Shown: piece by piece, positions 21,082 to 28,918 of the stretch
Position numbering within the stretch: the stretch's first letter is position 1
How the letters are laid out: every line of letters starts with the position of its first letter
Assembly (NCBI RefSeq): GCF_001457615.1
Contig: NZ_LN831024.1
Span: 6,180,001 to 6,212,000, forward strand
DNA length: 32,000 nucleotides
Source: Pseudomonas aeruginosa
GTDB lineage: Bacteria > Pseudomonadota > Gammaproteobacteria > Pseudomonadales > Pseudomonadaceae
Direction of reading: 5' to 3'
Translations under genes and position numbers: made by a program
The notes under the pieces: generated by a model
Databases searched by the model: none
What the model was told of the DNA's origin: nothing
What the model saw: the letters and a program-made list of their open reading frames with translations, nothing else

Positions 21082-21911
21082 ACTTCCTCAAGAAGATCGT
21101 CTCGCCGCCCAGCCCCGCCACCGAGCCCGTCGCCGCGCCACCCGCCCCCGCGCCGGTCGACCCGTACATGCTCGGGTTGCGCGACGCGGTGCTCAGCGGC
21201 TGGTTCAACCAGGAGACCGACGAGCTGTTCAGCGGCTTTCCGATTTCCGCCGAGGACACCGTGCTCGACGTGGGGTGCGGCGACGGCGGCAACGTTCATT
21301 TCTGCGCCATGCGCGGCGCTCGCATCATCATCGCCGACATCGACGCGGAAAAGATCGCCAGGACCCGCGAGCGCCTGGCCGATACCCCGGCCCGCGAACT
21401 GGAATGCCTGGTCAGCGACTGCGACCCGTTGCCCCTGGCTGACGCCACGGCCACCCGGGTGGTCTCCACCGAGGTCATCGAGCACGTCGACGATCCGCGG
21501 CAGTTCCTCGCCGAGCTGGTACGGGTCGGCCAGCCCGGCGCACTCTATCTGCTCAGCGTGCCGCATCCCACGTCGGAAGACCTGCAGAAGGACTTCGCCG
21601 CCGACGAATACTTCCGCAAGCCCAACCACATCCGCGTGCTCGGCGAGGAGCAGTTCGCCGCACTGGTGCGCGAAGCCGGCCTGGAAATCCTCAGCCACAG
21701 CCGCTACGGCTTCTACTGGTCGCTGTGGATGCTGCTGTTCTGGGAGGCCAAGGTCGATTTCGGCAATCCCGACCATCCCCTCCTCGAACACTGGGCCAGG
21801 ACCTGGCAGGCGCTGCTCGACTCGCCGCGCGGCCCGGCCATCAAGCAGGCCCTGGACGCCGTGGTCGCCAAGAGCCAGGTGATCATCGCGCGCAAGCCCG
21901 CTCAGGCGTAG
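21075..21911 (+). CDS. Class I SAM-dependent methyltransferase (CPA-associated), paralog 2
   Basis: The start ATG at 21075 overlaps the upstream stop by 7 nt (ATGCTGA). 278 aa with SAM motif VLDVGCGDGG. Collinear with the methyltransferase at 19079 (LGLRDAVLSGWF..., LLSVPHP..., KSQVIIARKP). Confidence 0.85.
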   Translation: MLNFLKKIVSPPSPATEPVAAPPAPAPVDPYMLGLRDAVLSGWFNQETDELFSGFPISAEDTVLDVGCGDGGNVHFCAMRGARIIIADIDAEKIARTRERLADTPARELECLVSDCDPLPLADATATRVVSTEVIEHVDDPRQFLAELVRVGQPGALYLLSVPHPTSEDLQKDFAADEYFRKPNHIRVLGEEQFAALVREAGLEILSHSRYGFYWSLWMLLFWEAKVDFGNPDHPLLEHWARTWQALLDSPRGPAIKQALDAVVAKSQVIIARKPAQA

Positions 21912-21917
21912 AACCAC

Positions 21918-21974
21918 CGGAACAGTTCCGCTACAGCCGGGCGGAACAGTTGCCGGGGCCACCGAACTGTTCCG
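21918..21974 (+). promoter_or_regulatory. Triple GGAACAGTT / AACTGTTCC repeat (10-bp perfect stem-loop plus a third copy): operon-end hairpin and/or control element of DUF1127 paralog 2
   Basis: CGGAACAGTTCCG at 21918-21930. CGGAACAGTT (21942-21951) is perfectly complementary to AACTGTTCCG (21965-21974) across a 13-nt loop. The cluster starts 7 nt after the methyltransferase stop. No U-tract follows. Confidence 0.4.
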
Positions 21975-22073
21975 TCCAACTCCCGCGTGGTTGCCCCTGA
22001 GCAAGCCAGCGGTCCCGGCGCATCATGAGGTTCCACACCCCGCCCCCATCCCCGGGATGGGAAGGAACGCACG

Positions 22074-22286
22074 ATGAGGACATCCCCGCACCCGCACGCC
22101 GGGAGTTCCAGCGGTCTCCCGGCCGCCCATCCACATCTCGCCGCCCTGTTGGAAAAATTGAATTCCTGGCGACAAAACGCTCGATCGCGCAAGCATCTTG
22201 CGCAAATGTCCGAACACGACCTCGCCGACCTGGCGATCAGCCCGAGCGAACGCTACGTAGAGATTTCGAAACCTTTCTGGCGCTGA
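22074..22286 (+). CDS. DUF1127-family small protein (paralog 2, 70 aa)
   Basis: The C-terminal half SWRQNARSRKHLAQMSEHDLADLAISPSERYVEISKPFWR aligns with paralog 1 and has the same KPFWR end. The ATG at 22074 is preceded by the same TGGGAAGGA SD context as paralog 1 (22058-22066). Confidence 0.7.
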   Translation: MRTSPHPHAGSSSGLPAAHPHLAALLEKLNSWRQNARSRKHLAQMSEHDLADLAISPSERYVEISKPFWR

Positions 22287-22330
22287 GCCGCTGGTGACGT
22301 GGCGCACAGTTGGTTAGTCTCAGCGTTGAC

Positions 22331-22352
22331 ACGGCCGCGCGGATGCGGCCGT
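22331..22352 (+). terminator. Hairpin downstream of DUF1127 paralog 2
   Basis: ACGGCCGC (22331-22338) pairs with GCGGCCGT (22345-22352) around a 6-nt loop. No U-tract. Confidence 0.3.
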
Positions 22353-22381
22353 CTACGCTGACTTCGTTCGGAGCAACTCAC

Positions 22382-22699
22382 ATGAAACGTCTGCGCCTGA
22401 TCGGTGCCGCTGCCCTGCTCGCCTGCGCCTCCAGCGCGTTCGCCAGCAGCTTCGTGGTCACCACGGATACTCTGGTCCGCGCCACCGGCATGACCTCCAA
22501 TGCCACTTCGGACATCACCAATTCCTTCCGCGACGACAAGATCGTCCTCGAAGCGCGCGACGACGCCGCCAGCTTCGTCGCCAGCCAGGGCGACATCCGC
22601 GGTTCGCACCTGGAAGCCGCACTGCGCCACATCCGTGGCAAGCTGCCGAGCCTGGCCGCCAACGACATGCAACTGGCCCAGGCGATCCTGACCATCTGA
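22382..22699 (+). CDS. DUF2388-type secreted mini-protein, copy 1 (105 aa)
   Basis: I use the internal ATG at 22382 because it yields a classical signal peptide (MKRLRLIGAAALLACASSAFA/SS) and has GGAG upstream. Conserved core EARDDAASFVASQGDIRGSHLEAALRHIR. Family assignment is from memory of a roughly 100-aa family described as having several tandem copies in Pseudomonas. Confidence 0.8.
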   Translation: MKRLRLIGAAALLACASSAFASSFVVTTDTLVRATGMTSNATSDITNSFRDDKIVLEARDDAASFVASQGDIRGSHLEAALRHIRGKLPSLAANDMQLAQAILTI

Positions 22700-22714
22700 G
22701 TCGCCCGCCCCGCC

Positions 22715-22736
22715 GCCGCAGCCGCCCGGCTGCGGC
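22715..22736 (+). terminator. GC-rich hairpin between DUF2388 copies 1 and 2
   Basis: GCCGCAGCC (22715-22723) pairs with GGCTGCGGC (22728-22736) around a 4-nt loop, 16 nt after the copy-1 stop. No U-tract. Confidence 0.3.
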
Positions 22737-22823
22737 GATGACCTGGCCGACCGGCCACACTGGCTCCGCGCCGCACATTCCGTTAGCCTTGGCGGCTGTT
22801 CCAGTCCTATTCCGCCCAACCCC

Positions 22824-23117
22824 ATGCGTTACCGGTTCTCGTTGCTCTTCTGTTGCCTGCTGGCGCCCGCTGCGCACGCCTTCGATACCACGACGGCGTT
22901 CACCGCGAAGTCCCTTTACGTCACCAGCAAGCTGACCAGCACGCCGTTCGAGAACAAATTGTTACGCGATGCCCGGGGCGATGCGGCCAGCTTCGTCGCC
23001 AGCGATGGCAGCATCCGTGGTGCGCGCCTGGAAGCGGCGCTGCGCTGGTTGCGTGTCGCGCACCCCGAGCTGGCGGCCAGCGATCAGGAACTGGCCGAAG
23101 CAATTCTTGCCCAATAG
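22824..23117 (+). CDS. DUF2388-type secreted mini-protein, copy 2 (97 aa)
   Basis: Signal peptide MRYRFSLLFCCLLAPAAHA/FD. Core DARGDAASFVASDGSIRGARLEAALRWLR. No obvious SD. Confidence 0.7.
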   Translation: MRYRFSLLFCCLLAPAAHAFDTTTAFTAKSLYVTSKLTSTPFENKLLRDARGDAASFVASDGSIRGARLEAALRWLRVAHPELAASDQELAEAILAQ

Positions 23118-23145
23118 GCGATCACCACCGTTCCGGAGAACCTCC

Positions 23146-23481
23146 ATGCGCCGTAGCTCCATGCGTCATAGCCCCCTGTTCGCCGCCCTGCTGCTGGCGC
23201 TCTGCGCCACGGCCGCGGAAGCACGCTCGGTGGTCGCGACCAGCAATATCATCGTCCGCGCCCTCGACCGCAGCATCGACTTCACTTCCGACACCACCAC
23301 TTCCGTGCGCGACATGAAAGTGGTCACCGAGGCGCGCGACGACGCCGCCAGTTTCGTCGCCAGCGACGGCGCCATTCGCGGCGCCCAGCTGGAAGCCGCG
23401 ATGCGGACCCTGCGCAGCCGTCTGCCGGAAGCCCGTGAAGCCTCCGACCAGGTACTTGCCGAAGCCATTCTCGCCCTGTGA
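23146..23481 (+). CDS. DUF2388-type secreted mini-protein, copy 3 (111 aa)
   Basis: The ATG at 23146 is preceded by GGAGAA. Signal peptide ...SPLFAALLLALCATAAEA/RS. Core EARDDAASFVASDGAIRGAQLEAAMRTLR. Its stop TGA (23479-23481) overlaps the GTG start (23478) of the next gene. Confidence 0.8.
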   Translation: MRRSSMRHSPLFAALLLALCATAAEARSVVATSNIIVRALDRSIDFTSDTTTSVRDMKVVTEARDDAASFVASDGAIRGAQLEAAMRTLRSRLPEAREASDQVLAEAILAL

Positions 23482-25436
23482 GGAAGGCCTGCGCCTGGCT
23501 GCTGGCGCTGGCCCTCTGCGGAGCCGGCAACGCGACGGCGGCCCTGCGCCTGAAACTCGACGCGCCTGGGCTGGACCCTGCGCAGCGCGAGGCCAGCCAG
23601 CAACTCTTGGACGATGCCGCGGACAAGCTGCCGCCGGCCTTCCGCGAACGCCTGGACCGCGAGATCGAGGTCGAGTGGCGCGACGACCTGCCCGCCAACG
23701 GCATGGGCCAGGCCCGTGGCCCGCAGCGCATCGCGCTGAACCGCAAGTACCTGGCCGATCTCACCGACGGCAGCGCCGCCAGCCGCCAGACCGGGCGCGT
23801 GCACGGCACCGAGCGGCGCGAGCTGCTGGCGACCCTGCTGCACGAGCTGACCCACGTCTACGATCGCGCGCGCCTGTGGTCGGCGGAGGAAAAACGCGAG
23901 ATCCGCCGCTGCACGCGCCAGGAAGAAACCCTCGGCCGGATCGCCCAGCCCACCGATTGCCGCGGGCAGAGCGGTCGCCGCTTCACGCTCTCCGACGACC
24001 CGCGCCTGCTCGATCTCGCCGGCTGGCCGCAGCGCGCCGGCCAGCGCGGGCGGCGCGAGGCGCACAATGGCTTCGTACTGCGCAGCCCGGACGTCTACGA
24101 GCTGAGCAATCCGCGCGAGTTCGTCGCGGTGAACATGGAGTACTTCCTCCTCGATCCCAGCTACGCCTGCCGCCGCCCGGCGCTCTACCGCTACTACCAG
24201 CAACGCTTCGGCTGGGCGCCGGAACACAGTGCCTGTGCGCAGAGCTTCGCCTACCTCAACGCCGGCCGCGACTTCGGCCAGCAGCCGCTGGGCCAGCTCG
24301 ACCCCGAGCGGGTCTACGAGGTCGACTACCTGCTGGCCGAGGCCAACGACAACCTGGTCAGCCGCTGGGGCCACACCATGCTCCGCCTGGTGATCTGCGC
24401 CCCCGGCCGGCCGCGTGGGCCGGACTGCCGGCTGGACCTCGACCAGCATCTGGTGCTGTCCTACCGCGCCTTCGTCGGCGACCTGCAATTGTCCAGCTGG
24501 GACGGCCTGACCGGCGCCTATCCGTCGCGCCTGTTCGTCCTGCCGCTGTCGCAGGTGATCGAGGAATACACCAAGGTCGAGCTGCGCAGCCTCGCCTCGG
24601 TGCCGCTGAAGCTGGACCGCGAGGAGGTCGCCAGCCTGGTCGAGCGCGCCGCGCAGAGTCACTGGAGCTACGACGGCCAGTACTACTTCATCTCCAACAA
24701 TTGCGCGGTGGAAACCCTCAAGCTTCTGCGCAGCGGCATCCCCCGGCGACCGCTGCAAAGCCTGGACAGCATCACCCCCTACGGCGTGCTCGAGATGCTG
24801 GAGAACCGCAAGCTGGCCGATCCCAGTGTGCTCGACGACCCCAAGGAAGCCCTGCGCCTGGGCTACCGCTTCGACTCCTTCCGCGACCGCTACCAGGCGA
24901 TGTTCGACGTGCTCAAGCAGCGCCTGCACATTCCCCAGGACAAGGTCGAGGACTGGCTGGCGCTGCCGGCCAGGGAGCGCCAGCCCTGGTTCGCCAAGGC
25001 CGACCTGCGCGCCAGCGCGGCGCTGCTGCTGCTCGAGCAGGCCTCGCTGCGGCGCCAGCTGCTGCTCGCCCAGGACGAGTTGAAGCGCCTGTACCTCGGC
25101 CACCTGGACAAGCCGGCCGGCGACCAGCGCCTGGAAGTGGCCGGCAAGACCTTCCAGCAGATCCTCGACGACAGCGGCTTCCTCAGTCGTCCGGCGGAAC
25201 TCCTGGAGGGCGGCTACGGCCTGCCGCAGGCCGCCGAGTGGAAGCACCTGGAAGAGCAGACCCGCGAACGCCAGGCGCGCCTGCGCCGGCTCAGCGACGA
25301 CCTCGACCGCGAGGTCCGCGCCCTGCTCGATCCCGAGCGCCGCGCCGAGCTGGAAGCCAACGAGGCCAACATCAAGGAGGTCGGCGCGCACCTGCGCGAG
25401 CTGCACAAGGCGGCCGGCGGGCTGATGCTGCCCTGA
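23478..25436 (+). CDS. Secreted 652-aa protein: N-terminal HExxH zincin-like module + DUF4105-like module + C-terminal coiled coil; function unknown
   Basis: GTG start in a GTGA overlap. Signal peptide MRKACAWLLALALCGAGNATA/AL. HELTH lies at codons 122-126 (nt 23841-23855) and is followed by NPREFVAVNMEYFLLDP...PALYRYYQQRF, which recalls MtfA/M90-type zincins. The central region (RWGHTMLRLV ... YYFISNNCAVETL) resembles DUF4105 (Lnb N-terminal periplasmic domain) as I remember it. The last roughly 200 aa are heptad-rich and charged. Confidence 0.85.
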   Translation: MRKACAWLLALALCGAGNATAALRLKLDAPGLDPAQREASQQLLDDAADKLPPAFRERLDREIEVEWRDDLPANGMGQARGPQRIALNRKYLADLTDGSAASRQTGRVHGTERRELLATLLHELTHVYDRARLWSAEEKREIRRCTRQEETLGRIAQPTDCRGQSGRRFTLSDDPRLLDLAGWPQRAGQRGRREAHNGFVLRSPDVYELSNPREFVAVNMEYFLLDPSYACRRPALYRYYQQRFGWAPEHSACAQSFAYLNAGRDFGQQPLGQLDPERVYEVDYLLAEANDNLVSRWGHTMLRLVICAPGRPRGPDCRLDLDQHLVLSYRAFVGDLQLSSWDGLTGAYPSRLFVLPLSQVIEEYTKVELRSLASVPLKLDREEVASLVERAAQSHWSYDGQYYFISNNCAVETLKLLRSGIPRRPLQSLDSITPYGVLEMLENRKLADPSVLDDPKEALRLGYRFDSFRDRYQAMFDVLKQRLHIPQDKVEDWLALPARERQPWFAKADLRASAALLLLEQASLRRQLLLAQDELKRLYLGHLDKPAGDQRLEVAGKTFQQILDDSGFLSRPAELLEGGYGLPQAAEWKHLEEQTRERQARLRRLSDDLDREVRALLDPERRAELEANEANIKEVGAHLRELHKAAGGLMLP

Positions 25437-25490
25437 GGGAGGCGCCTGCAGGACGCATGGTCCCGAGCGCTCTTTCAGCGCCTCGCAGAC

Positions 25491-25524
25491 GGCGGATAAC
25501 GCTCTGCGTTATTCGCCCTACAGG
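25491..25524. repeat. REP-like palindromic element / bidirectional terminator between convergent genes
   Basis: GGCGGATAACGC (25491-25502) - tct - GCGTTATTCGCC (25506-25517) forms a 12-bp stem with one G-U pair. It is followed by CTACAGG, which resembles Pseudomonas/enterobacterial REP tails. Confidence 0.5.
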
Positions 25525-25543
25525 TGCCACCTCCGGTCTTCGC

Positions 25544-25963
25544 TCACGGGTCGTCCGCTCCGGCGATGAACTCCTCGTCCTCTTCGGGCAACTGCGGGTC
25601 GAGGTGTAGCCATGGCAGGCGGCTGCCGACCCAGATGTGCCGGTTGGCGGGGGCGCGCTCGGGATGGTCGAGGCTGGCCACGGTGAAGTCCAGGGTATCG
25701 GCGCTGAGCCGGGTGAACAACGCCAGGTTGGCCCCGCAACGCGGGCAGAAGTAGCGCGTGCAGCTGGCCGACGAGGCATATTCCGCCGGTTCGCCCGCCA
25801 GCCAGCGGAACGCCGCGCGCGGCACCGTGGCCCAGGTGGTGACGATGCCGCCTGTGGTGCGCCGGCAGATCGAGCAGTGGCAGTGAGCGACATCGTCCAG
25901 CGGCGCGGCGACGGCGTAGCGCAGATAGCCGCAATGGCAACCGCCGGTATGGGTCTCGGGCAT
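25544..25963 (-). CDS. GFA / CENP-V family zinc-binding protein (139 aa)
   Basis: I use the ATG at 25963 (strong SD GAGGAGGA). MPETHTGGCHCGYLRY...CHCSICRR...YFCPRCG shows the cysteine pattern of glutathione-dependent formaldehyde-activating-enzyme-like proteins. Confidence 0.85.
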   Translation of the reverse strand: MPETHTGGCHCGYLRYAVAAPLDDVAHCHCSICRRTTGGIVTTWATVPRAAFRWLAGEPAEYASSASCTRYFCPRCGANLALFTRLSADTLDFTVASLDHPERAPANRHIWVGSRLPWLHLDPQLPEEDEEFIAGADDP

Positions 25964-26030
25964 GGCGAATCCTCCTCGCGGGAGTGCCAGCATAAGCCGG
26001 ACTTGCCCTGTGCCGCAGCCACCTCGCAAG

Positions 26031-26975
26031 ATGAGCGGATTCCACTATCCGGGGGTGCCCGTGACCGCTCTGCTCTACTCCCTCTGGCCGCTGTTCGCCC
26101 TCATCGTCGGCGGTTACGCCCTGCGCCGCTGGGACTTTCCCGGCGAAGCCTTCTGGCCTGCCGCAGAACGCCTGAACTACTTCATCCTGTTTCCCGCGCT
26201 GCTGTTCAGCAACCTGGCGACCGCGCCGCTGGACGACCCCGGCCTGGCCCGCCAGGCCCTGGCCGTACTGCTCGGGCTCGGCGTCGCCTGGCTCGCCCTG
26301 CTGCTCTGCAAGCGCTGGCGCGGCTGGGACGCCGGGCGCTTCGGCGCCATCGCCCAGGGCGTATTGCGCTTCAACACCTATCTCGGCCTGGCCGCGGTCG
26401 GCAGCCTGTACGGCAAGCCGGGCCTGACCCTGGCCGCGCTGATGCTGGCGCTGATGGTGCCGACGGTGAACGTGATGTCGGTCTGGGCGCTGACCGCCGA
26501 GCGCGGCATCAGCCTGCGCGCGCTGCTGCTGCCGATCCTGAAGAACCCGCTGATCCTCGCCTGCCTCGCCGGCGCACTGGTCAACCTGGCCGGCGTCGGC
26601 CTGCCCGGCGGCAGCGATCGCCTGCTCAACCTGCTGGCGGTGGCCAGCCTGCCGCTGGGCCTGCTGTGCGTCGGCGCGGCGCTGAAACCCCAGGAACTCG
26701 GCGGCGAAGTCGCGGCCCTTGGCTGGAACTGCGCGGCGCGGCTGCTGGCGATGCCCCTGCTGGCCTTCGCCATCGCTCGCGGGCTGGGCCTGCCGAGCAT
26801 GGAAAGCGCCGTGCTGGTACTGTTCTTCGCCCTGCCGACGGCGCCCACCGCCTATGTGCTGACCCGCCAACTGGGCGGCGACGGCCACCTGATGGCGGGC
26901 ATCATTACCTTGCAAACGCTGCTTTCCGGCGCCACTCTGGTCGGCGTACTCCTCGTGCTGCAAGGAAGCCCATGA
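26031..26975 (+). CDS. AEC (auxin efflux carrier / Mem_trans) family transporter
   Basis: About 10 TM helices. Pattern LFALIVGGYALRR...NYFILFPALLF...ILKNPLILA...LFFALPTAPTAYVL is typical of the AEC family. The start is uncertain: ATG 26031, or GTG 26061 preceded by GGGGG. The track ORF begins at 25962. Confidence 0.8.
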   Translation: MSGFHYPGVPVTALLYSLWPLFALIVGGYALRRWDFPGEAFWPAAERLNYFILFPALLFSNLATAPLDDPGLARQALAVLLGLGVAWLALLLCKRWRGWDAGRFGAIAQGVLRFNTYLGLAAVGSLYGKPGLTLAALMLALMVPTVNVMSVWALTAERGISLRALLLPILKNPLILACLAGALVNLAGVGLPGGSDRLLNLLAVASLPLGLLCVGAALKPQELGGEVAALGWNCAARLLAMPLLAFAIARGLGLPSMESAVLVLFFALPTAPTAYVLTRQLGGDGHLMAGIITLQTLLSGATLVGVLLVLQGSP

Positions 26976-27334
26976 CGACAGGACGCGTCGCCGCCGCCCT
27001 CACGGCGCTCTGCCTGCTCTGCCAACCGGCCTTCGGTTTCATCAAGGTGTTTCCCGAATTCGACGACGAACCCGGCGCCGCCACCTTCTTCTGGGCGGCC
27101 GTCACCACCGTCGGCCCGTTCATCGGCAGCACCGTCAGCGCACAGGAGTCCAGCGCTGACGAGGGCGACAAGCTCGTCCAGGCGCGGGACGACGCCGCCA
27201 GCTTCGTCGCCAGCGACGGTGCGATCCGTGGCGCGTACCTCCAGGCAGCCTTGCAGGTCCTGCGCCAAGCCCCGGAATACGCCGGGTACAGCGACCTGCA
27301 ACTGGCCGCGGCGCTCCTCGCGCGGCAGCCCTGA
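26972..27334 (+). CDS. DUF2388-type secreted mini-protein, copy 4 (120 aa)
   Basis: The ATG at 26972 overlaps the AEC transporter stop (ATGA, 26972-26975). Signal peptide MTTGRVAAALTALCLLCQPAFG/FI. Core QARDDAASFVASDGAIRGAYLQAALQVLR. Confidence 0.8.
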   Translation: MTTGRVAAALTALCLLCQPAFGFIKVFPEFDDEPGAATFFWAAVTTVGPFIGSTVSAQESSADEGDKLVQARDDAASFVASDGAIRGAYLQAALQVLRQAPEYAGYSDLQLAAALLARQP

Positions 27335-27613
27335 TCGACCATATATCCGAAATTACCCGCACGTTTCCCGCCGTTATCCAGCGAAAGCTGCCTGAAAGCT
27401 TCCCGCCGTAGCATCCGCCCACCACCGGCAGAAGACCGGACACGACGGCGCGCCCACGAGACGCCCGCTTACCCGTACAAAAACAACAATGGTGATTGCC
27501 ATGCCCCGTTCCGCACACGCCTACAGCCGCACTCCGTCCGCGCGACGCCACCCGCCCGCCGCCTGCTGACCGCACGCCGCACGCCCGTCCGCCGTCTTCC
27601 CCGGAGTGAACCC

Positions 27614-28918
27614 ATGCTGACCCTGCTCGCCTTCGCCATGGTGGCGACCTTCATGTTCCTGATCATGACCAAGCGCCTGTCCGCGCTGATCGCGCTGATC
27701 CTGGTCCCGATCGCCTTCGCCCTGATCGGCGGTTTCGCCGCCGGCCTCGGCCCGATGATGCTCGACGGCATCCGCACCCTGGCGCCGACCGGCGTGATGC
27801 TGATGTTCGCGATCCTCTACTTCGCCATCATGATCGACTCCGGGCTGTTCGACCCGGCGGTGCGCAAGATCCTCCGGCTGGTCAAGGGCGACCCGCTGAA
27901 GGTCTCGCTGGGCACCGCGGCGCTGGCGATGATCGTCTCCCTCGACGGCGACGGCTCGACCACCTACATGATCTGCGTGGCCGCCGTACTGCCGTTGTAC
28001 AGCCGCCTGGGCATGAGCCCGCTGGTGATGGCCTGCCTGATCATGCTCTCCAGCGGCGTGCTCAACATGACCCCCTGGGGTGGCCCCACCGCCCGCGCGG
28101 CGAGTGCCCTGCACGTCGACCCGGCGGATATCTTCGTGCCGATGATCCCGGCGATGATCGCCGGGCTGCTGGCGATCTTCGCCATCGCCTGGATCTACGG
28201 CAAGCGCGAGCGCGCCCGCCTCGGCGAGCTGCACCTGCCCACCGACCATGAGGACCTGGCGGAGATCAGCGTGTCGCAGTATCCGGAGGCGCGCCGGCCC
28301 AAGCTGCTGTGGTTCAACGCTATTCTCACCGTGGTCCTGATGGCGACCCTGATCGCCGGCCTGCTGCCGATGCCGGTGCTGTTCATGATCGCCTTCGGCA
28401 TCGCCATGATCGTCAACTACCCGTGCATCCAGGAGCAGAAGAAGCGCATCGGCGCACACGCCGAGAACATTCTCGCAGTGGTCTCGCTGATCTTCGCCGC
28501 CGGGGTGTTCACCGGCATCCTCTCCGGCACCGGGATGGTCGACGCCATGTCCAAGAGCCTGCTGGCGGTGATCCCGCCGGCGCTGGGCCCATACCTGGCG
28601 ACCATCACCGCGCTGGTGAGCATGCCGTTCACCTTCTTCATGTCCAACGACGCCTTCTACTACGGCGTCCTGCCGATCCTCACCCAGGCCGCCGCCGAAT
28701 ACGGCATCACCCCGGTGGAAATGGCCCGCGCCTCGATCGTCGGCCAGCCGGTGCACCTGCTCAGCCCGCTGGTGCCCTCCACCTACCTGCTGGTGGGGCT
28801 GGCCAAGATCGACTTCGGCGACCACCAGCGCTTCACCCTGAAATGGGCCGTGCTGGTGTGCCTGGCAATCCTCGCCATGGCCCTGCTGCTGGGCCTGTTC
28901 CCCCTGTTCAGTAACTGA
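27614..28918 (+). CDS. CitMHS-family citrate(-metal):H+ symporter
   Basis: 434 aa. GGAG lies 7 nt upstream. Polytopic membrane protein, MLTLLAFAMVATFMFLIMTKRLSALIALILVPIAFALIGGF..., characteristic of CitM/CitH transporters. Confidence 0.88.
   Translation: MLTLLAFAMVATFMFLIMTKRLSALIALILVPIAFALIGGFAAGLGPMMLDGIRTLAPTGVMLMFAILYFAIMIDSGLFDPAVRKILRLVKGDPLKVSLGTAALAMIVSLDGDGSTTYMICVAAVLPLYSRLGMSPLVMACLIMLSSGVLNMTPWGGPTARAASALHVDPADIFVPMIPAMIAGLLAIFAIAWIYGKRERARLGELHLPTDHEDLAEISVSQYPEARRPKLLWFNAILTVVLMATLIAGLLPMPVLFMIAFGIAMIVNYPCIQEQKKRIGAHAENILAVVSLIFAAGVFTGILSGTGMVDAMSKSLLAVIPPALGPYLATITALVSMPFTFFMSNDAFYYGVLPILTQAAAEYGITPVEMARASIVGQPVHLLSPLVPSTYLLVGLAKIDFGDHQRFTLKWAVLVCLAILAMALLLGLFPLFSN

What the first reader, a model, noticed from the sequence alone, without database searches (positions are those of the whole stretch)
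22382..25436. Three tandem DUF2388-type secreted mini-proteins coupled to a large secreted HExxH/DUF4105-like protein: candidate uncharacterised periplasmic system
Seen in sequence:
- Three consecutive ORFs (105, 97 and 111 aa) each have a cleavable signal peptide and a Thr/Ser-rich N-terminal half.
- All three share an almost invariant core, AR(D/G)DAASFVAS(D/Q)G.IRG..LEAA.R.(L/I)R.
- The third ORF ends inside the GTG start of a 652-aa secreted protein (GTGA at 23478-23481), which implies translational coupling and fixed stoichiometry.

Established knowledge (from memory): this mini-protein family is annotated only as a domain of unknown function, and I know of no functional study of either it or the large protein.

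Inference: multiple diverged copies of a small exported protein sit next to an exported enzyme-like protein. That suggests the mini-proteins are substrates, inhibitors or adaptors of that protein, acting as an envelope-modifying or envelope-sensing module.
Basis: partly seen in the sequence, partly recalled or inferred. Interest (0 to 1): 0.75.

Follow-up and report, generated by a model that had tools for sequence, protein, structure and literature searches.

The report
Exported two-enzyme protein with small partners
Pseudomonas and the predatory bacterium Bdellovibrio both keep a large exported protein with two apparently intact enzyme sites next to one to three small exported helper-like proteins, and nobody has yet studied what this conserved gene set does in the cell envelope.

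Summary
Three DUF2388 genes (105, 97 and 111 aa) precede a 652-aa exported protein made of DUF7844 plus Lnb_N (DUF4105), and the third small gene ends in a GTGA overlap with the large gene's start. By my mapping, these are P. aeruginosa PA5461 to PA5464.

New findings:
- **Two catalytic sites.** The DUF7844 domain is an MtfA-like zinc protease fold with HExxHxxD and a conserved Glu ligand. The Lnb_N domain keeps the His/Cys pair of permuted NlpC/P60 acyltransferases.
- **Conserved linkage.** All 30 genome loci and 77 of 79 metagenome loci carry DUF2388 genes upstream. Bdellovibrio and Stenotrophomonas keep the pairing too.
- **Conserved coupling.** All 90 three-copy loci have the GTGA junction, and none has a ribosome-binding site.
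- **Old, non-redundant paralogues.** Each of the three copies holds its position across loci.
- **Split triplet.** A hairpin and an invariant DNA motif separate copy 1 from copies 2 and 3.
- **Extra parts.** A fourth copy (PA5467) and an upstream DUF1127 gene belong to the neighbourhood.

There is no sign of a link to the neighbouring O-antigen (CPA) genes, and the function is untested. My best reading is that the small proteins dock on the enzyme and present their Ser/Thr-rich tails to it, as clients or as pseudo-substrate regulators. The families are already catalogued, but the module itself is unstudied.

The parts
22074..22286 (+). DUF1127 (YjiS-like) small protein, most likely PA5460. It is a conserved upstream neighbour within Pseudomonas only.
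   Evidence: Pfam PF06568, E 2.3e-12. Found upstream on the same strand in 80 of 89 loci with enough upstream DNA; absent in Stutzerimonas, the Xanthomonad-like loci and the Bdellovibrio-like loci. The exact sequence is UniProt Q9HTB0_PSEAE.
22382..22699 (+). DUF2388 copy 1 (m1, 105 aa, most likely PA5461). Signal peptide with predicted AFA|SS cleavage, a Ser/Thr-rich segment, then a conserved helical domain.
   Evidence: PF09498 E 1.9e-32, TIGR02448 E 9.6e-42. GGAG lies 8 nt before the ATG. Positional orthologue in 90 three-copy loci.
22714..22737 (+). GC-rich hairpin (10-bp stem, GCCC loop) directly after the m1 stop. Terminator-like or attenuator-like, with no U-tract in P. aeruginosa.
   Evidence: Folded. 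An uninterrupted stem of 7 bp or more occurs in 92% of 90 loci against 69% of shuffles; a stem of 9 bp or more in 63% against 35%. The hairpin sequence differs between lineages but the stem is kept (alignment).
22760..22791 (+). Conserved non-coding motif CTGGCTC-N9-10-CA(T/C)T.CG(C/T)TAGCCTTG, about 35 nt upstream of m2. Probably an internal promoter or operator for m2-m3-large gene.
   Evidence: Many columns are 90% or more conserved across 88 distinct spacers, while the flanks vary. Unique in the window, with 0 expected by chance. No RNA covariation, no Rfam hit.
22824..23117 (+). DUF2388 copy 2 (m2, 97 aa, most likely PA5462).
   Evidence: PF09498 E 1e-31. The exact sequence is UniProt Q9HTA8_PSEAE. 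Positional orthologue.
23146..23481 (+). DUF2388 copy 3 (m3, 111 aa, most likely PA5463). Its TGA lies inside the start codon of the large gene.
   Evidence: PF09498 E 1.6e-31. GGAG lies before the 23146 ATG. AF2 model of the mature protein: residues 27-84 form a helical bundle at pLDDT above 90, and residues 1-26 score about 50. The DFTSDTTTS.RD.K segment is 95% or more conserved among orthologues.
23478..23481 (+). GTGA stop/start overlap between m3 and the large gene.
   Evidence: Read directly. GTGA is present in 90 of 90 three-copy loci, and none of 75 distinct junctions has an SD-like tetramer upstream. The gap is -4 nt in 75 of 77 metagenome loci.
23478..25436 (+). Large exported protein (652 aa, most likely PA5464). 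It has a signal peptide (residues 1-21) and no other hydrophobic segment.
   Evidence: 100% identical to the NCBI 'DUF4105 domain-containing protein [P. aeruginosa]'. AF2 mean pLDDT 93.7, pTM 0.91. Only the N-terminal window exceeds the Kyte-Doolittle threshold.
23547..24233 (+). DUF7844 domain (residues 24-252), an MtfA-like zincin. Contains H122-E123-x-x-H126-x-x-D129 (nt 23841-23864) and the predicted third zinc ligand E214 in NPREFVAVNMEYF.
   Evidence: PF25226 E 3.5e-113. H122, E214 and D226 are invariant, and E123, H126, D129, E208 and E221 are 90% or more conserved in 77 sequences down to 29% identity. A family profile hits MtfA chains 9srw and 3dl1 at E 6e-4 and 6e-3, aligning both motifs. 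The best Foldseek PDB hit is 3dl1, probability 0.98. Peptidase_M90 scores below threshold, E 0.003.
24288..24803 (+). Lnb_N (DUF4105) domain (residues 271-442), a permuted NlpC/P60 fold with invariant H299 (nt 24372-24374) and C409 (nt 24702-24704). The invariant C307/C317 pair is a probable disulfide.
   Evidence: PF13387 E 1.3e-27. Invariant columns. The family's catalytic His/Cys and the acyltransferase role of Lnb come from bioRxiv 10.1101/2024.05.31.596883 and PMC12994826.
24825..25433 (+). C-terminal all-helical region (residues about 450-652) built of long helical hairpins, with the conserved motif G-Y580-G581-x-P583.
   Evidence: AF2 secondary structure. Y580 and G581 are invariant. 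No Pfam family matches.
26972..27334 (+). Fourth DUF2388 gene (m4, 120 aa, PA5467) with a different, more hydrophobic N-terminal half. Its ATG overlaps the TGA of the AEC transporter gene (25962-26975).
   Evidence: PF09498 E 1.1e-20. AEC transporter assignment. PA5466 is an AEC transporter in a PA5466-PA5467 operon according to PMC12606150. This copy is one partner in the natural m1/m4 recombination deletion.

Best explanation
This is a conserved, exported two-part module.

**The large protein (PA5464)** is a soluble periplasmic or secreted enzyme with two apparently intact catalytic centres:
- an MtfA-like zinc metallopeptidase site (H122, E123, H126, with E214 as third ligand);
- an Lnb-like permuted NlpC/P60 Cys-His site (H299, C409), of the kind that moves acyl chains through a thioester.

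A C-terminal bundle of long helical hairpins follows these two domains.

**The DUF2388 mini-proteins** are its dedicated protein partners. Their nearly invariant 55-residue helical domain is the docking piece. Their N-terminal Ser/Thr-rich segment is conserved within each paralogue but not ordered on its own, and it is what gets presented to the catalytic sites.

I favour the client reading: the enzyme trims and/or acylates this segment. A pseudo-substrate regulator role is the close second.

**Expression** is tiered. Copy 1 is made alone, with a terminator-like hairpin after it. Copies 2 and 3 and the enzyme are made from a conserved internal control site. The enzyme is translated only by ribosomes that have just finished copy 3 (GTG start inside the stop codon, no Shine-Dalgarno sequence).

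**What is shown:** the domain identities, the conserved catalytic residues, the conserved linkage and the conserved junction. **What is inferred:** export, physical contact, and the kind of chemistry.
For: **Domains and catalytic residues**
- Pfam assignments.
- H122, E214, H299 and C409 are invariant, and E123, H126 and D129 are 90% or more conserved, across 77 to 119 family members down to about 29% identity.
- The family profile matches MtfA in the PDB across both zinc-site motifs. Foldseek's best hit is MtfA, probability 0.98.
- The AF2 model is confident: pLDDT 93.7.
- The mature large protein has three conserved Cys pairs plus the lone C409, and no transmembrane segment. This fits an oxidising, exported location.

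**Linkage**
- 30 of 30 genome loci have a DUF2388 gene immediately upstream, as do 77 of 79 metagenome loci.
- The pairing persists in Stenotrophomonas at 39% identity, in Bdellovibrio sp. ZAP7 and in B. bacteriovorus.
- DUF2388-like exported mini-genes flank still more distant homologues. A profile-profile comparison gives E 5.5e-5, probability 66%.
- Flanking genes are otherwise not conserved.

**Coupling and expression**
- GTGA junction in 90 of 90 loci, with no SD-like tetramer in any of 75 distinct junctions.
- A hairpin and an invariant motif lie between copies 1 and 2.

**Partner features of the mini-proteins**
- Positional orthology of m1, m2 and m3 exceeds 97% of cross-locus best hits.
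- The N-terminal segment is conserved within each paralogue but scores only about pLDDT 50 when modelled alone.
- A Ser/Thr-rich stretch precedes the helical domain even in the Bdellovibrio-like versions.

**Precedent**
- The only studied Lnb_N protein acylates a protein N-terminus.
Against: - Nothing here shows contact between the small and large proteins. The complex prediction could not be run.
- Two of ten distant contexts (L031, L035) have no recognisable DUF2388-like neighbour. Three others rest on weak similarity only.
- Gene order is not fixed in distant lineages: the mini-gene can be upstream, downstream or divergent.
- The first residue of the mature mini-proteins is not conserved (S, F, R, Q, H, A), which argues against a residue-specific N-acylation.
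- A DUF2388 copy (m4) is coupled to a transporter gene rather than to the enzyme, and a chimeric copy survives in strains that have lost the enzyme. The domain may therefore have a role of its own.
- Translational coupling fits a subunit or inhibitor at least as well as a substrate.
- Signal peptides were judged only by simple rules.
- The MtfA similarity is marginal by sequence: E 6e-4, and Peptidase_M90 falls below Pfam's cut-off.
Confidence: 0.45

Rival explanations
1. Enzyme plus dedicated inhibitor or regulatory subunit. The mini-proteins hold the zinc protease and/or the Cys-His site inactive, or tune it, inside the producer's periplasm. The precedents are AprI for the alkaline protease AprA, the staphostatins for the staphopains, and the Bdellovibrio self-protection protein Bd3460 (all recalled from memory). 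The extended N-terminal strand of the mature mini-protein would sit in the active-site cleft.
For: - The upstream gene is translationally coupled to the enzyme, so partner synthesis always precedes and exceeds enzyme synthesis.
- The extreme N-terminus right after the predicted cleavage site is conserved: x-S/T-F/L/V-V-A/V-T-S/T-D/N.
- The helical domain is tiny and near-invariant, as expected for a binding surface.
- Every Pseudomonas locus with the enzyme has at least two copies.
- Permuted NlpC/P60 relatives can be toxic lipid-targeting enzymes (PMC12994826).
Against: - There is no homology to any known inhibitor family. Pfam reports only DUF2388, and there is no PDB match by sequence or by fold.
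- It is hard to see why one enzyme would need three old, non-redundant inhibitors in fixed order.
- Copy 1 is transcriptionally set apart, and copy 4 is tied to a transporter.
- Known inhibitor genes usually lie downstream of their enzyme (from memory).
Confidence: 0.27
2. Secreted antibacterial toxin with periplasmic immunity proteins. The large protein would be an exported lipid-targeting or cell-wall-targeting effector, and the tandem mini-proteins an immunity array.
For: - The sister clade of DUF4105 (Tox-Act1) and TseH are T6SS effectors with cognate immunity proteins (PMC12994826).
- Immunity genes are often duplicated in tandem (from memory).
- Bdellovibrio, a predator, carries the module.
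- One P. putida-group locus has a PAAR-motif gene downstream.
Against: - The large protein has a Sec-type signal peptide and no T6SS or other delivery domain.
- The module is found in many Pseudomonas species at about 69% identity, with stable positional orthology. This is housekeeping-like conservation, not arms-race turnover.
- No PADLOC hit, although PADLOC covers anti-phage systems only.
- The PAAR neighbour is not conserved.
Confidence: 0.08
3. Co-regulated but mechanistically independent envelope proteins. The DUF2388 proteins have a role of their own, such as small periplasmic stress, chaperone or ligand-binding proteins, and share only regulation and location with the enzyme. The enzyme acts on lipids, lipoproteins or peptidoglycan-linked proteins.
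For: - DUF2388 copies also occur away from the enzyme: m4 sits with a transporter.
- A chimeric copy is retained in deletion strains.
- Two distant enzyme loci have no such neighbour.
- Copy 1 looks like a separate transcription unit.
- One DUF2388 gene in P. putida (PP_3743) changes expression on its own in an alr mutant (PMC6034422).
Against: - The linkage survives across two phyla while all other neighbours change.
- The 4-nt overlap without a ribosome-binding site is universal in Pseudomonas.
- Such tight and ancient coupling is unusual for unrelated functions.
Confidence: 0.2

Closest known systems
Lnb, lipoprotein N-acyltransferase of Bacteroides (DUF4105 / Pfam Lnb_N; permuted NlpC/P60)
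   Same: The central domain (residues 271-442) matches the Lnb_N model at E 1e-27. It keeps an invariant His and Cys in the permuted order, with His about 100 residues before Cys, and it faces the periplasm.
   Different: - Lnb is 398 aa with five transmembrane helices. This protein is 652 aa and soluble apart from its signal peptide.
- This protein carries an extra zinc-protease-like domain and a helical tail.
- It comes with DUF2388 partner genes.
- Pseudomonas already has the canonical Lnt (stated in the Lnb paper), so the Lnb job is not vacant.
MtfA (Mlc titration factor A, peptidase family M90), with a fold related to anthrax lethal factor
   Same: HExxHxxD and the downstream D.Y....P.E.FAV..EYF helix, which carries the third zinc ligand, align colinearly. 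MtfA is the best Foldseek hit in the PDB, probability 0.98.
   Different: - MtfA is a cytoplasmic single-domain protein regulated by Mlc (from memory).
- Here the domain is exported, disulfide-bearing and fused to an acyltransferase-type domain.
- Peptidase_M90 scores 17.7 bits against a cut-off of 26.2.
LnsA/LnsB two-component lipoprotein N-acylation system of Staphylococcus
   Same: It combines an NlpC/P60-type protein (LnsA) with a second protein of protease-like ancestry (LnsB, CPBP family; from memory) to acylate a protein N-terminus. Here the two kinds of site sit in a single chain.
   Different: No sequence homology was shown. LnsB is an integral membrane protein. Lipoprotein substrates carry a lipobox cysteine, which the DUF2388 proteins lack as a conserved feature.
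Co-encoded secreted protease and inhibitor pairs (AprA/AprI, staphopain/staphostatin)
   Same: A small exported or co-expressed protein is encoded next to a protease and made with it. In AprI the N-terminal strand occupies the zinc site (from memory).
   Different: There is no homology to these inhibitors. The gene order is reversed, there are three diverged copies, and the enzyme has a second catalytic domain.
TIGR02448 / Pfam DUF2388 family entry
   Same: The three mini-proteins are plain members of this family. From memory, the family description already notes tandem triplets in Pseudomonas.
   Different: As far as the searched literature shows, the entry gives no partner, structure or function.

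Membership tests
DUF2388 / TIGR02448 | Match to the family HMM above the curated cut-off | tested here: met
   PF09498 scores 108.6 to 111.6 bits for m1-m3 and 73.9 for m4, against a cut-off of 25. TIGR02448 scores 129.8 to 141.4 bits for m1-m3 and 69.3 for m4, against a cut-off of 53.85.
DUF2388 / TIGR02448 | Small protein of about 100 aa with an N-terminal signal sequence | tested here: met
   Lengths are 97 to 120 aa. Each has a basic n-region, a hydrophobic core and an AxA-type site by rule-based check. Export has not been shown experimentally.
DUF7844 + Lnb_N architecture family | Both Pfam domains in one chain of about 650 aa | tested here: met
   PF25226 377 bits and PF13387 97 bits. 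The 50%-identity protein library holds 654 representative clusters at E 1e-30 or better.
Lnb (Bacteroides lipoprotein N-acyltransferase) | DUF4105 periplasmic domain with conserved catalytic His and Cys | tested here: met
   H299 and C409 are invariant in 77 sequences. The domain match has E 1e-27.
Lnb (Bacteroides lipoprotein N-acyltransferase) | Integral membrane protein with five transmembrane helices | tested here: not met
   Only the N-terminal signal segment passes the hydrophobicity threshold. The AF2 model is a soluble multi-domain protein.
Lnb (Bacteroides lipoprotein N-acyltransferase) | N-acylates diacylated lipoproteins and can replace Lnt | not testable with these tools
   Needs a complementation test or a lipoprotein mass shift assay.
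Peptidase M90 (MtfA) | HExxH plus a downstream Glu zinc ligand on the E.FAV..EYF helix | tested here: met
   Colinear alignment to 9srw and 3dl1. H122 and E214 are invariant, and E123 and H126 are 90% or more conserved.
Peptidase M90 (MtfA) | Match to the Pfam Peptidase_M90 model above its cut-off | tested here: not met
   17.7 bits against a cut-off of 26.2, E 0.003, C-terminal 40 residues only. This makes it a related zincin, not a member.
T6SS-type NlpC/P60 effector with immunity proteins (TseH, Tox-Act1) | Linkage to a secretion or delivery apparatus or a delivery domain | tested here: not met
   The protein has a Sec-type signal peptide and no delivery domain in Pfam. Neighbours vary, and only one locus has a PAAR gene.
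RiPP-like precursor plus modifying enzyme | Several small genes next to the enzyme, with a hairpin after the first | tested here: met
   This is a resemblance in layout only.
RiPP-like precursor plus modifying enzyme | Cytoplasmic modification guided by a leader peptide, with a short core peptide released | tested here: not met
   Both partners carry Sec-type signal peptides. The conserved part is a folded 55-residue helical domain.

The most novel reading that the evidence does not exclude
PA5464 would be the enzyme of a cysteine-independent protein lipidation route in the periplasm. Its zinc-protease domain would trim the Ser/Thr-rich N-terminal segment of the DUF2388 proteins. Its Lnb-like Cys-His domain would then transfer a phospholipid acyl chain onto the new N-terminus or onto Ser/Thr side chains. 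This would create a previously unrecognised class of membrane-tethered mini-proteins shared by Pseudomonas and Bdellovibrio.
Probability: 0.12. Interest if true: 0.85.

Novelty: new variant of a known kind. Interest (0 to 1): 0.55.

Why it matters
Many Pseudomonas species, including the pathogen P. aeruginosa, carry this four-gene set, yet full-text searches found no study of it.

This work turns three 'domains of unknown function' into a concrete, testable picture:
- an exported enzyme with a zinc-protease site and an acyl-transfer site;
- small partner proteins with a docking domain and a conserved flexible tail;
- a defined expression logic.

If the partners are acylated or processed, this would be a new way of modifying envelope proteins. 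If they are inhibitors, it would be a new protease or acyltransferase control system. Either way it would show what soluble DUF4105 enzymes do in bacteria that already have Lnt.

The natural deletion strains and the point mutants named here make the experiments simple to set up.

Tried and rejected
**Jobs that failed or were unavailable**
- An earlier block-diagonal alignment (A3) scattered the mini-proteins along the long row and was discarded.

**Searches that were less informative than hoped**
- The genome-contig scan with a single sequence returned only 30 mostly close relatives.
- The metagenome scan kept only Pseudomonas-like loci at 67-77% identity. Distant contexts therefore had to come from 12 single look-ups.

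**Ideas tested and dropped**
- Natural fusions of DUF2388 with the large protein: none among 270 family members.
- Internal DUF2388-like segment in the large protein: none.
- PDB relatives of DUF2388: none by sequence or by fold.
- Anti-phage defence: no PADLOC hit.
- Known RNA families in 21800-27700: none.
- Sigma-54 reading of the conserved motif: rejected by reading the consensus. The GG-to-GC spacing is 18 nt, or 13 nt by the alternative GC, rather than 12, and the GC is not conserved in P. aeruginosa.
- Simple sigma-70 scan of the region: 0 sites.
- RNA structure in the motif: five predicted pairs with no compensatory change.
- Lipoprotein reading of m1 (LLAC string): Cys15 is not conserved in m1 orthologues.
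- Lipoprotein reading of the large protein: orthologues lack the Cys.
- Functional link to CPA O-antigen synthesis: rejected, because the flanks differ in other species and pa5460 is not co-transcribed with pa5455-59.
- The biofilm and stationary-phase expression data for 'PA5460' concern the DUF1127 gene, not a DUF2388 gene. This follows from my gene mapping.

Full report
**What is there**

The window is 65-70% G+C. It is Pseudomonas aeruginosa: the large protein is 100% identical to an NCBI P. aeruginosa entry. On the + strand, four ORFs lie at 22382-22699 (105 aa), 22824-23117 (97 aa), 23146-23481 (111 aa) and 23478-25436 (652 aa).

- The three small proteins each hit Pfam DUF2388 at E about 1e-32 and TIGR02448 at E about 1e-40.
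- The large protein hits DUF7844 (residues 24-252, E 3.5e-113) and Lnb_N, the former DUF4105 (residues 271-442, E 1.3e-27).
- The quoted core motif, the HELTH string and the GTGA overlap at 23478-23481 are all present.

**Gene names**

I map the genes as follows:

| Gene | Product | Window position |
|---|---|---|
| PA5460 | DUF1127 protein | 22074-22286 |
| PA5461 | DUF2388 copy 1 (m1) | 22382-22699 |
| PA5462 | DUF2388 copy 2 (m2) | 22824-23117 |
| PA5463 | DUF2388 copy 3 (m3) | 23146-23481 |
| PA5464 | large protein | 23478-25436 |
| PA5465 | GFA-family protein, minus strand | 25544-26029 |
| PA5466 | AEC transporter | 25962-26975 |
| PA5467 | fourth DUF2388 gene (m4) | 26972-27334 |

The mapping is an inference and rests on three things:
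- Exact-sequence look-up gives UniProt Q9HTB0 for the DUF1127 protein and Q9HTA8 for copy 2.
- Eight genes lie between the CPA methyltransferase and the citrate transporter.
- A paper calls PA5466 an AEC transporter in a PA5466-PA5467 operon.

One consequence is that the published expression data for 'PA5460' and the RT-PCR result that pa5460 is not co-transcribed with pa5455-59 concern the DUF1127 gene.

Full-text searches for DUF2388, DUF7844, the Pfam and TIGRFAM accessions and PA5461-PA5467 found no functional study. The only mentions are gene lists.

**The large protein**

I aligned it with 76 to 118 family representatives down to about 29% identity. Conserved residues cluster in four places.

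1. *Zinc site.* H122 is invariant, and E123, H126 and D129 are 90% or more conserved. Downstream, E214 and D226 are invariant, and Y207, E208, A217, V218, N219 and E221 are 90% or more conserved.
   - A profile of the family hits the solved MtfA structures (9srw at E 6e-4, 3dl1 at E 6e-3). The HExxHxxD motif and the helix D.Y....P.E.FAV..EYF align colinearly.
   - By my count along that alignment, E214 falls on the Glu that I recall (from memory) as MtfA's third zinc ligand.
   - Foldseek on a confident AF2 model (pLDDT 93.7, pTM 0.91) also puts MtfA first, at probability 0.98, followed by other zincins.
   - Pfam gives Peptidase_M90, SprT-like and M76 as sub-threshold hits.
   - DUF7844 is therefore an MtfA-like zincin with an intact-looking active site. 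It is not a member of M90.
2. *Cys-His site.* G298-H299 and N408-C409 are invariant. Published work places DUF4105 in the permuted NlpC/P60 superfamily, with a catalytic His and Cys. Its one studied member, Bacteroides Lnb, is the lipoprotein N-acyltransferase.
3. *Disulfides.* C231/C253 and C307/C317 are 90% or more conserved or invariant, and C145/C161 is partly conserved. That leaves C409 as the single unpaired cysteine of the mature protein. This is what one expects of an exported enzyme.
4. *Tail.* The C-terminal 200 residues are long helical hairpins with an invariant Y580-G581 and no Pfam match.

The only hydrophobic segment is the signal peptide. This protein is therefore not an Lnb orthologue, because Lnb has five membrane helices.

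**The small proteins**

Each has a basic N-terminus, a hydrophobic core and an AxA-type cleavage site (AFA|SS, AHA|FD, AEA|RS). These calls come from simple rules.

The AF2 model of mature copy 3 has a confident helical bundle at residues 27-84 (pLDDT above 90). The first 26 residues score about pLDDT 50. The fold has no relative in the PDB by Foldseek or by sequence profile.

The low-confidence N-terminal half is not junk. Within each paralogue group it is strongly conserved across 70-87 distinct orthologues. For example, DFTSDTTTS.RD.K is 95% or more conserved in copy 3, and the first residues after the cleavage site follow the pattern x-S/T-F/L/V-V-A/V-T-S/T-D/N. A Ser/Thr-rich stretch before the helical domain recurs in the Xanthomonad-like versions, where it is Ser/Gly-rich, and in the Bdellovibrio-like versions.

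**Linkage**

- In 30 of 30 loci from one-genome-per-species data, at least one DUF2388 gene sits directly upstream on the same strand. Most Pseudomonas have three copies, two loci have two, and Stutzerimonas, Stenotrophomonas (39% identity) and one mislabelled contig have one.
- In 80 metagenome loci, 77 of the 79 with a detectable large gene have copies upstream. Among loci with enough upstream DNA, 63 have three copies and 8 have two. The stop/start overlap is exactly 4 nt in 75 of 77.
- All 90 three-copy loci have GTGA at the junction. None of the 75 distinct junction sequences has a Shine-Dalgarno-like tetramer upstream. I infer that the large gene is translated by reinitiation after copy 3.
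- Cross-locus best hits keep position: copy 1 matches copy 1, copy 2 matches copy 2 and copy 3 matches copy 3 in more than 97% of about 24,000 comparisons. The triplication is therefore old and the copies are not interchangeable.

Outside the genus:
- Bdellovibrio sp. ZAP7 and B. bacteriovorus have a Pfam-positive DUF2388 gene directly upstream of their DUF7844/Lnb_N gene.
- Other distant, lower-G+C homologues at 31-37% identity have small exported proteins with a DUF2388-like motif upstream, downstream or divergently placed.
- Three of these are detected by my HMM, at E 2e-8 to 2e-4. The rest are supported only by a profile-profile score of E 5.5e-5, probability 66%.
- Two contexts (L031, L035) have none.

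The genes around the module differ between species. In the P. putida-group and P. savastanoi loci it follows pntAB and an acetyl-CoA hydrolase gene. The adjacency to the CPA O-antigen cluster is therefore particular to P. aeruginosa. The DUF1127 gene is a conserved upstream neighbour within Pseudomonas only (80 of 89 loci).

**Expression layout**

The spacer between copies 1 and 2 has a median length of 106 nt.

- Directly after the copy 1 stop it holds a perfect hairpin (window 22714-22737). The hairpin's sequence differs between lineages while the stem persists, and in many fluorescens-group loci a short T-rich run follows it.
- The excess over shuffled controls is modest: a stem of 7 bp or more in 92% against 69%, and 9 bp or more in 63% against 35%.
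- Downstream of the hairpin lies an almost invariant motif, CTGGCTC-N9-10-CA(T/C)T.CG(C/T)TAGCCTTG (window 22760-22791). It sits about 35 nt before copy 2 and is unique in the window.
- The motif does not fit sigma-54 spacing, shows no RNA covariation and has no Rfam match.

I read this as a terminator or attenuator after copy 1, plus an internal promoter or operator for copy 2, copy 3 and the enzyme. This is inference.

**How it most likely works**

The pieces that fit together are:
- an enzyme with two intact catalytic sites;
- small partners with a near-invariant docking-size domain and a conserved but intrinsically unstructured Ser/Thr-rich tail;
- linkage across two phyla while all other neighbours change;
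- strict translational coupling.

I conclude that the mini-proteins engage the enzyme physically.

I favour a client role. Several diverged paralogues, including a dispersed one, serve a single enzyme. The variable part is the part that would be worked on. The one studied Lnb_N protein acylates a protein N-terminus.

A pseudo-substrate inhibitor or regulatory subunit is nearly as likely, because coupling with the partner gene upstream is typical of such pairs. An independent-function reading and a toxin/immunity reading are less likely, for the reasons given under the rival explanations.

None of this is shown. The decisive complex prediction could not be run.

**Comparison with what is known, and novelty**

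The families are catalogued (DUF2388/TIGR02448, DUF7844, Lnb_N), and from memory the tandem triplet is noted in the TIGRFAM text. I did not find the following described anywhere in the searched literature:
- the zincin assignment of DUF7844;
- the two-site architecture;
- the cross-phylum pairing;
- the universal GTGA junction without a ribosome-binding site;
- the positional orthology of the three copies;
- the split expression layout.

The module works like a relative of the Lnb/LnsA acyltransferases but fails the membership test for Lnb, since it has no membrane domain. I rate it a new variant of a known kind, of moderate to good interest. It is real, conserved and unstudied, but its mechanism remains open.

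**Seen along the way**

Some P. aeruginosa assemblies carry a 4.58-kb deletion formed by recombination between the conserved cores of copy 1 and copy 4. It leaves one chimeric DUF2388 gene and removes copies 2 and 3, the enzyme, the GFA gene and the AEC transporter. The module is therefore dispensable for growth in those isolates, which gives ready-made natural mutants.

Noticed in passing
window 22585-27166; L122 5001-5324; L123 2655-2978: Some P. aeruginosa assemblies (GCA_001007285.1, GCA_001007195.1) have a 4.58-kb deletion. The flanks are 99.6% identical to the window, and m1 is fused to m4 through about 52 nt of shared DUF2388 core. The result is a 107-aa chimeric gene (P0279), with m2, m3, the large gene, the GFA gene and the AEC transporter lost. 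About 14 contigs carry such chimeras, against more than 1000 for intact m1.
   Followed up: partly
window 22074-22286: A DUF1127 (YjiS-like) 70-aa gene, most likely PA5460, is kept upstream of the DUF2388 genes in 80 of 89 loci, but only within Pseudomonas. Papers report 'PA5460' as highly expressed in drip-flow biofilms and as differentially expressed alongside PA4738/PA4739 and osmE. Its relation to the module is unknown.
   Followed up: partly
window 22760-22791: An almost invariant 30-nt non-coding motif, CTGGCTC-N9-10-CA(T/C)T.CG(C/T)TAGCCTTG, lies upstream of m2 across diverse Pseudomonas. It matches no promoter consensus that I could fit, shows no RNA covariation and has no Rfam hit.
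   Followed up: partly
window 26972-26975: The fourth DUF2388 gene (m4, PA5467) starts with an ATGA overlap on the stop codon of the AEC-family transporter gene (PA5466). After its signal peptide it has an extra hydrophobic stretch (ATFFWAAVTTVGPFIGSTV) that the other copies lack. Among the loci examined, only P. paraeruginosa (L001) also carries this fourth copy downstream of the large gene; none of 79 metagenome loci with a large gene has one.
   Followed up: partly
window 22325-22352: A second GC-rich inverted repeat, ACGGCCGC-GCGGAT-GCGGCCGT, lies between the DUF1127 gene and m1, with no T-run after it. I noticed it by eye in the sequence and did not fold it or compare it across loci.
   Followed up: no
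L026 (JAHREJ010000006.1), L009 (JBKYMN010000002.1), protein P0015: Public labels look wrong. A contig titled Bacillus subtilis has 68% G+C and a Xanthomonad-like copy of the module. An 'Enterobacterales bacterium' contig and a 'Stenotrophomonas maltophilia' MAG protein are 75-76% identical to the Pseudomonas protein.
   Followed up: partly
proteins P0414, P0419, P0420, P0425, P0428 (clusters of m1 and m2): Several database records name DUF2388 proteins 'Holliday junction resolvase' or 'resolvasome, helicase subunit'. Nothing here supports that name: the proteins carry signal peptides and have only the DUF2388 domain.
   Followed up: no
L031 5712-8762; L032 2906-5995: In two distant homologue loci the neighbours are lipid-related: an MMPL/RND-type transporter with DUF1329 and TP_0789-like domains, and two fatty-acid desaturases. 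This fits a lipid-handling role for the Lnb_N domain, but the sample is only two loci.
   Followed up: no
window 22424-22426 (m1 Cys15) and the signal peptides of m2, m3, m4 and the large protein: Every signal peptide in the P. aeruginosa module contains one or two cysteines in its hydrophobic core. m1 even has a lipobox-like LLAC string. The m1 cysteine is not conserved in orthologues, so I treated it as incidental.
   Followed up: partly
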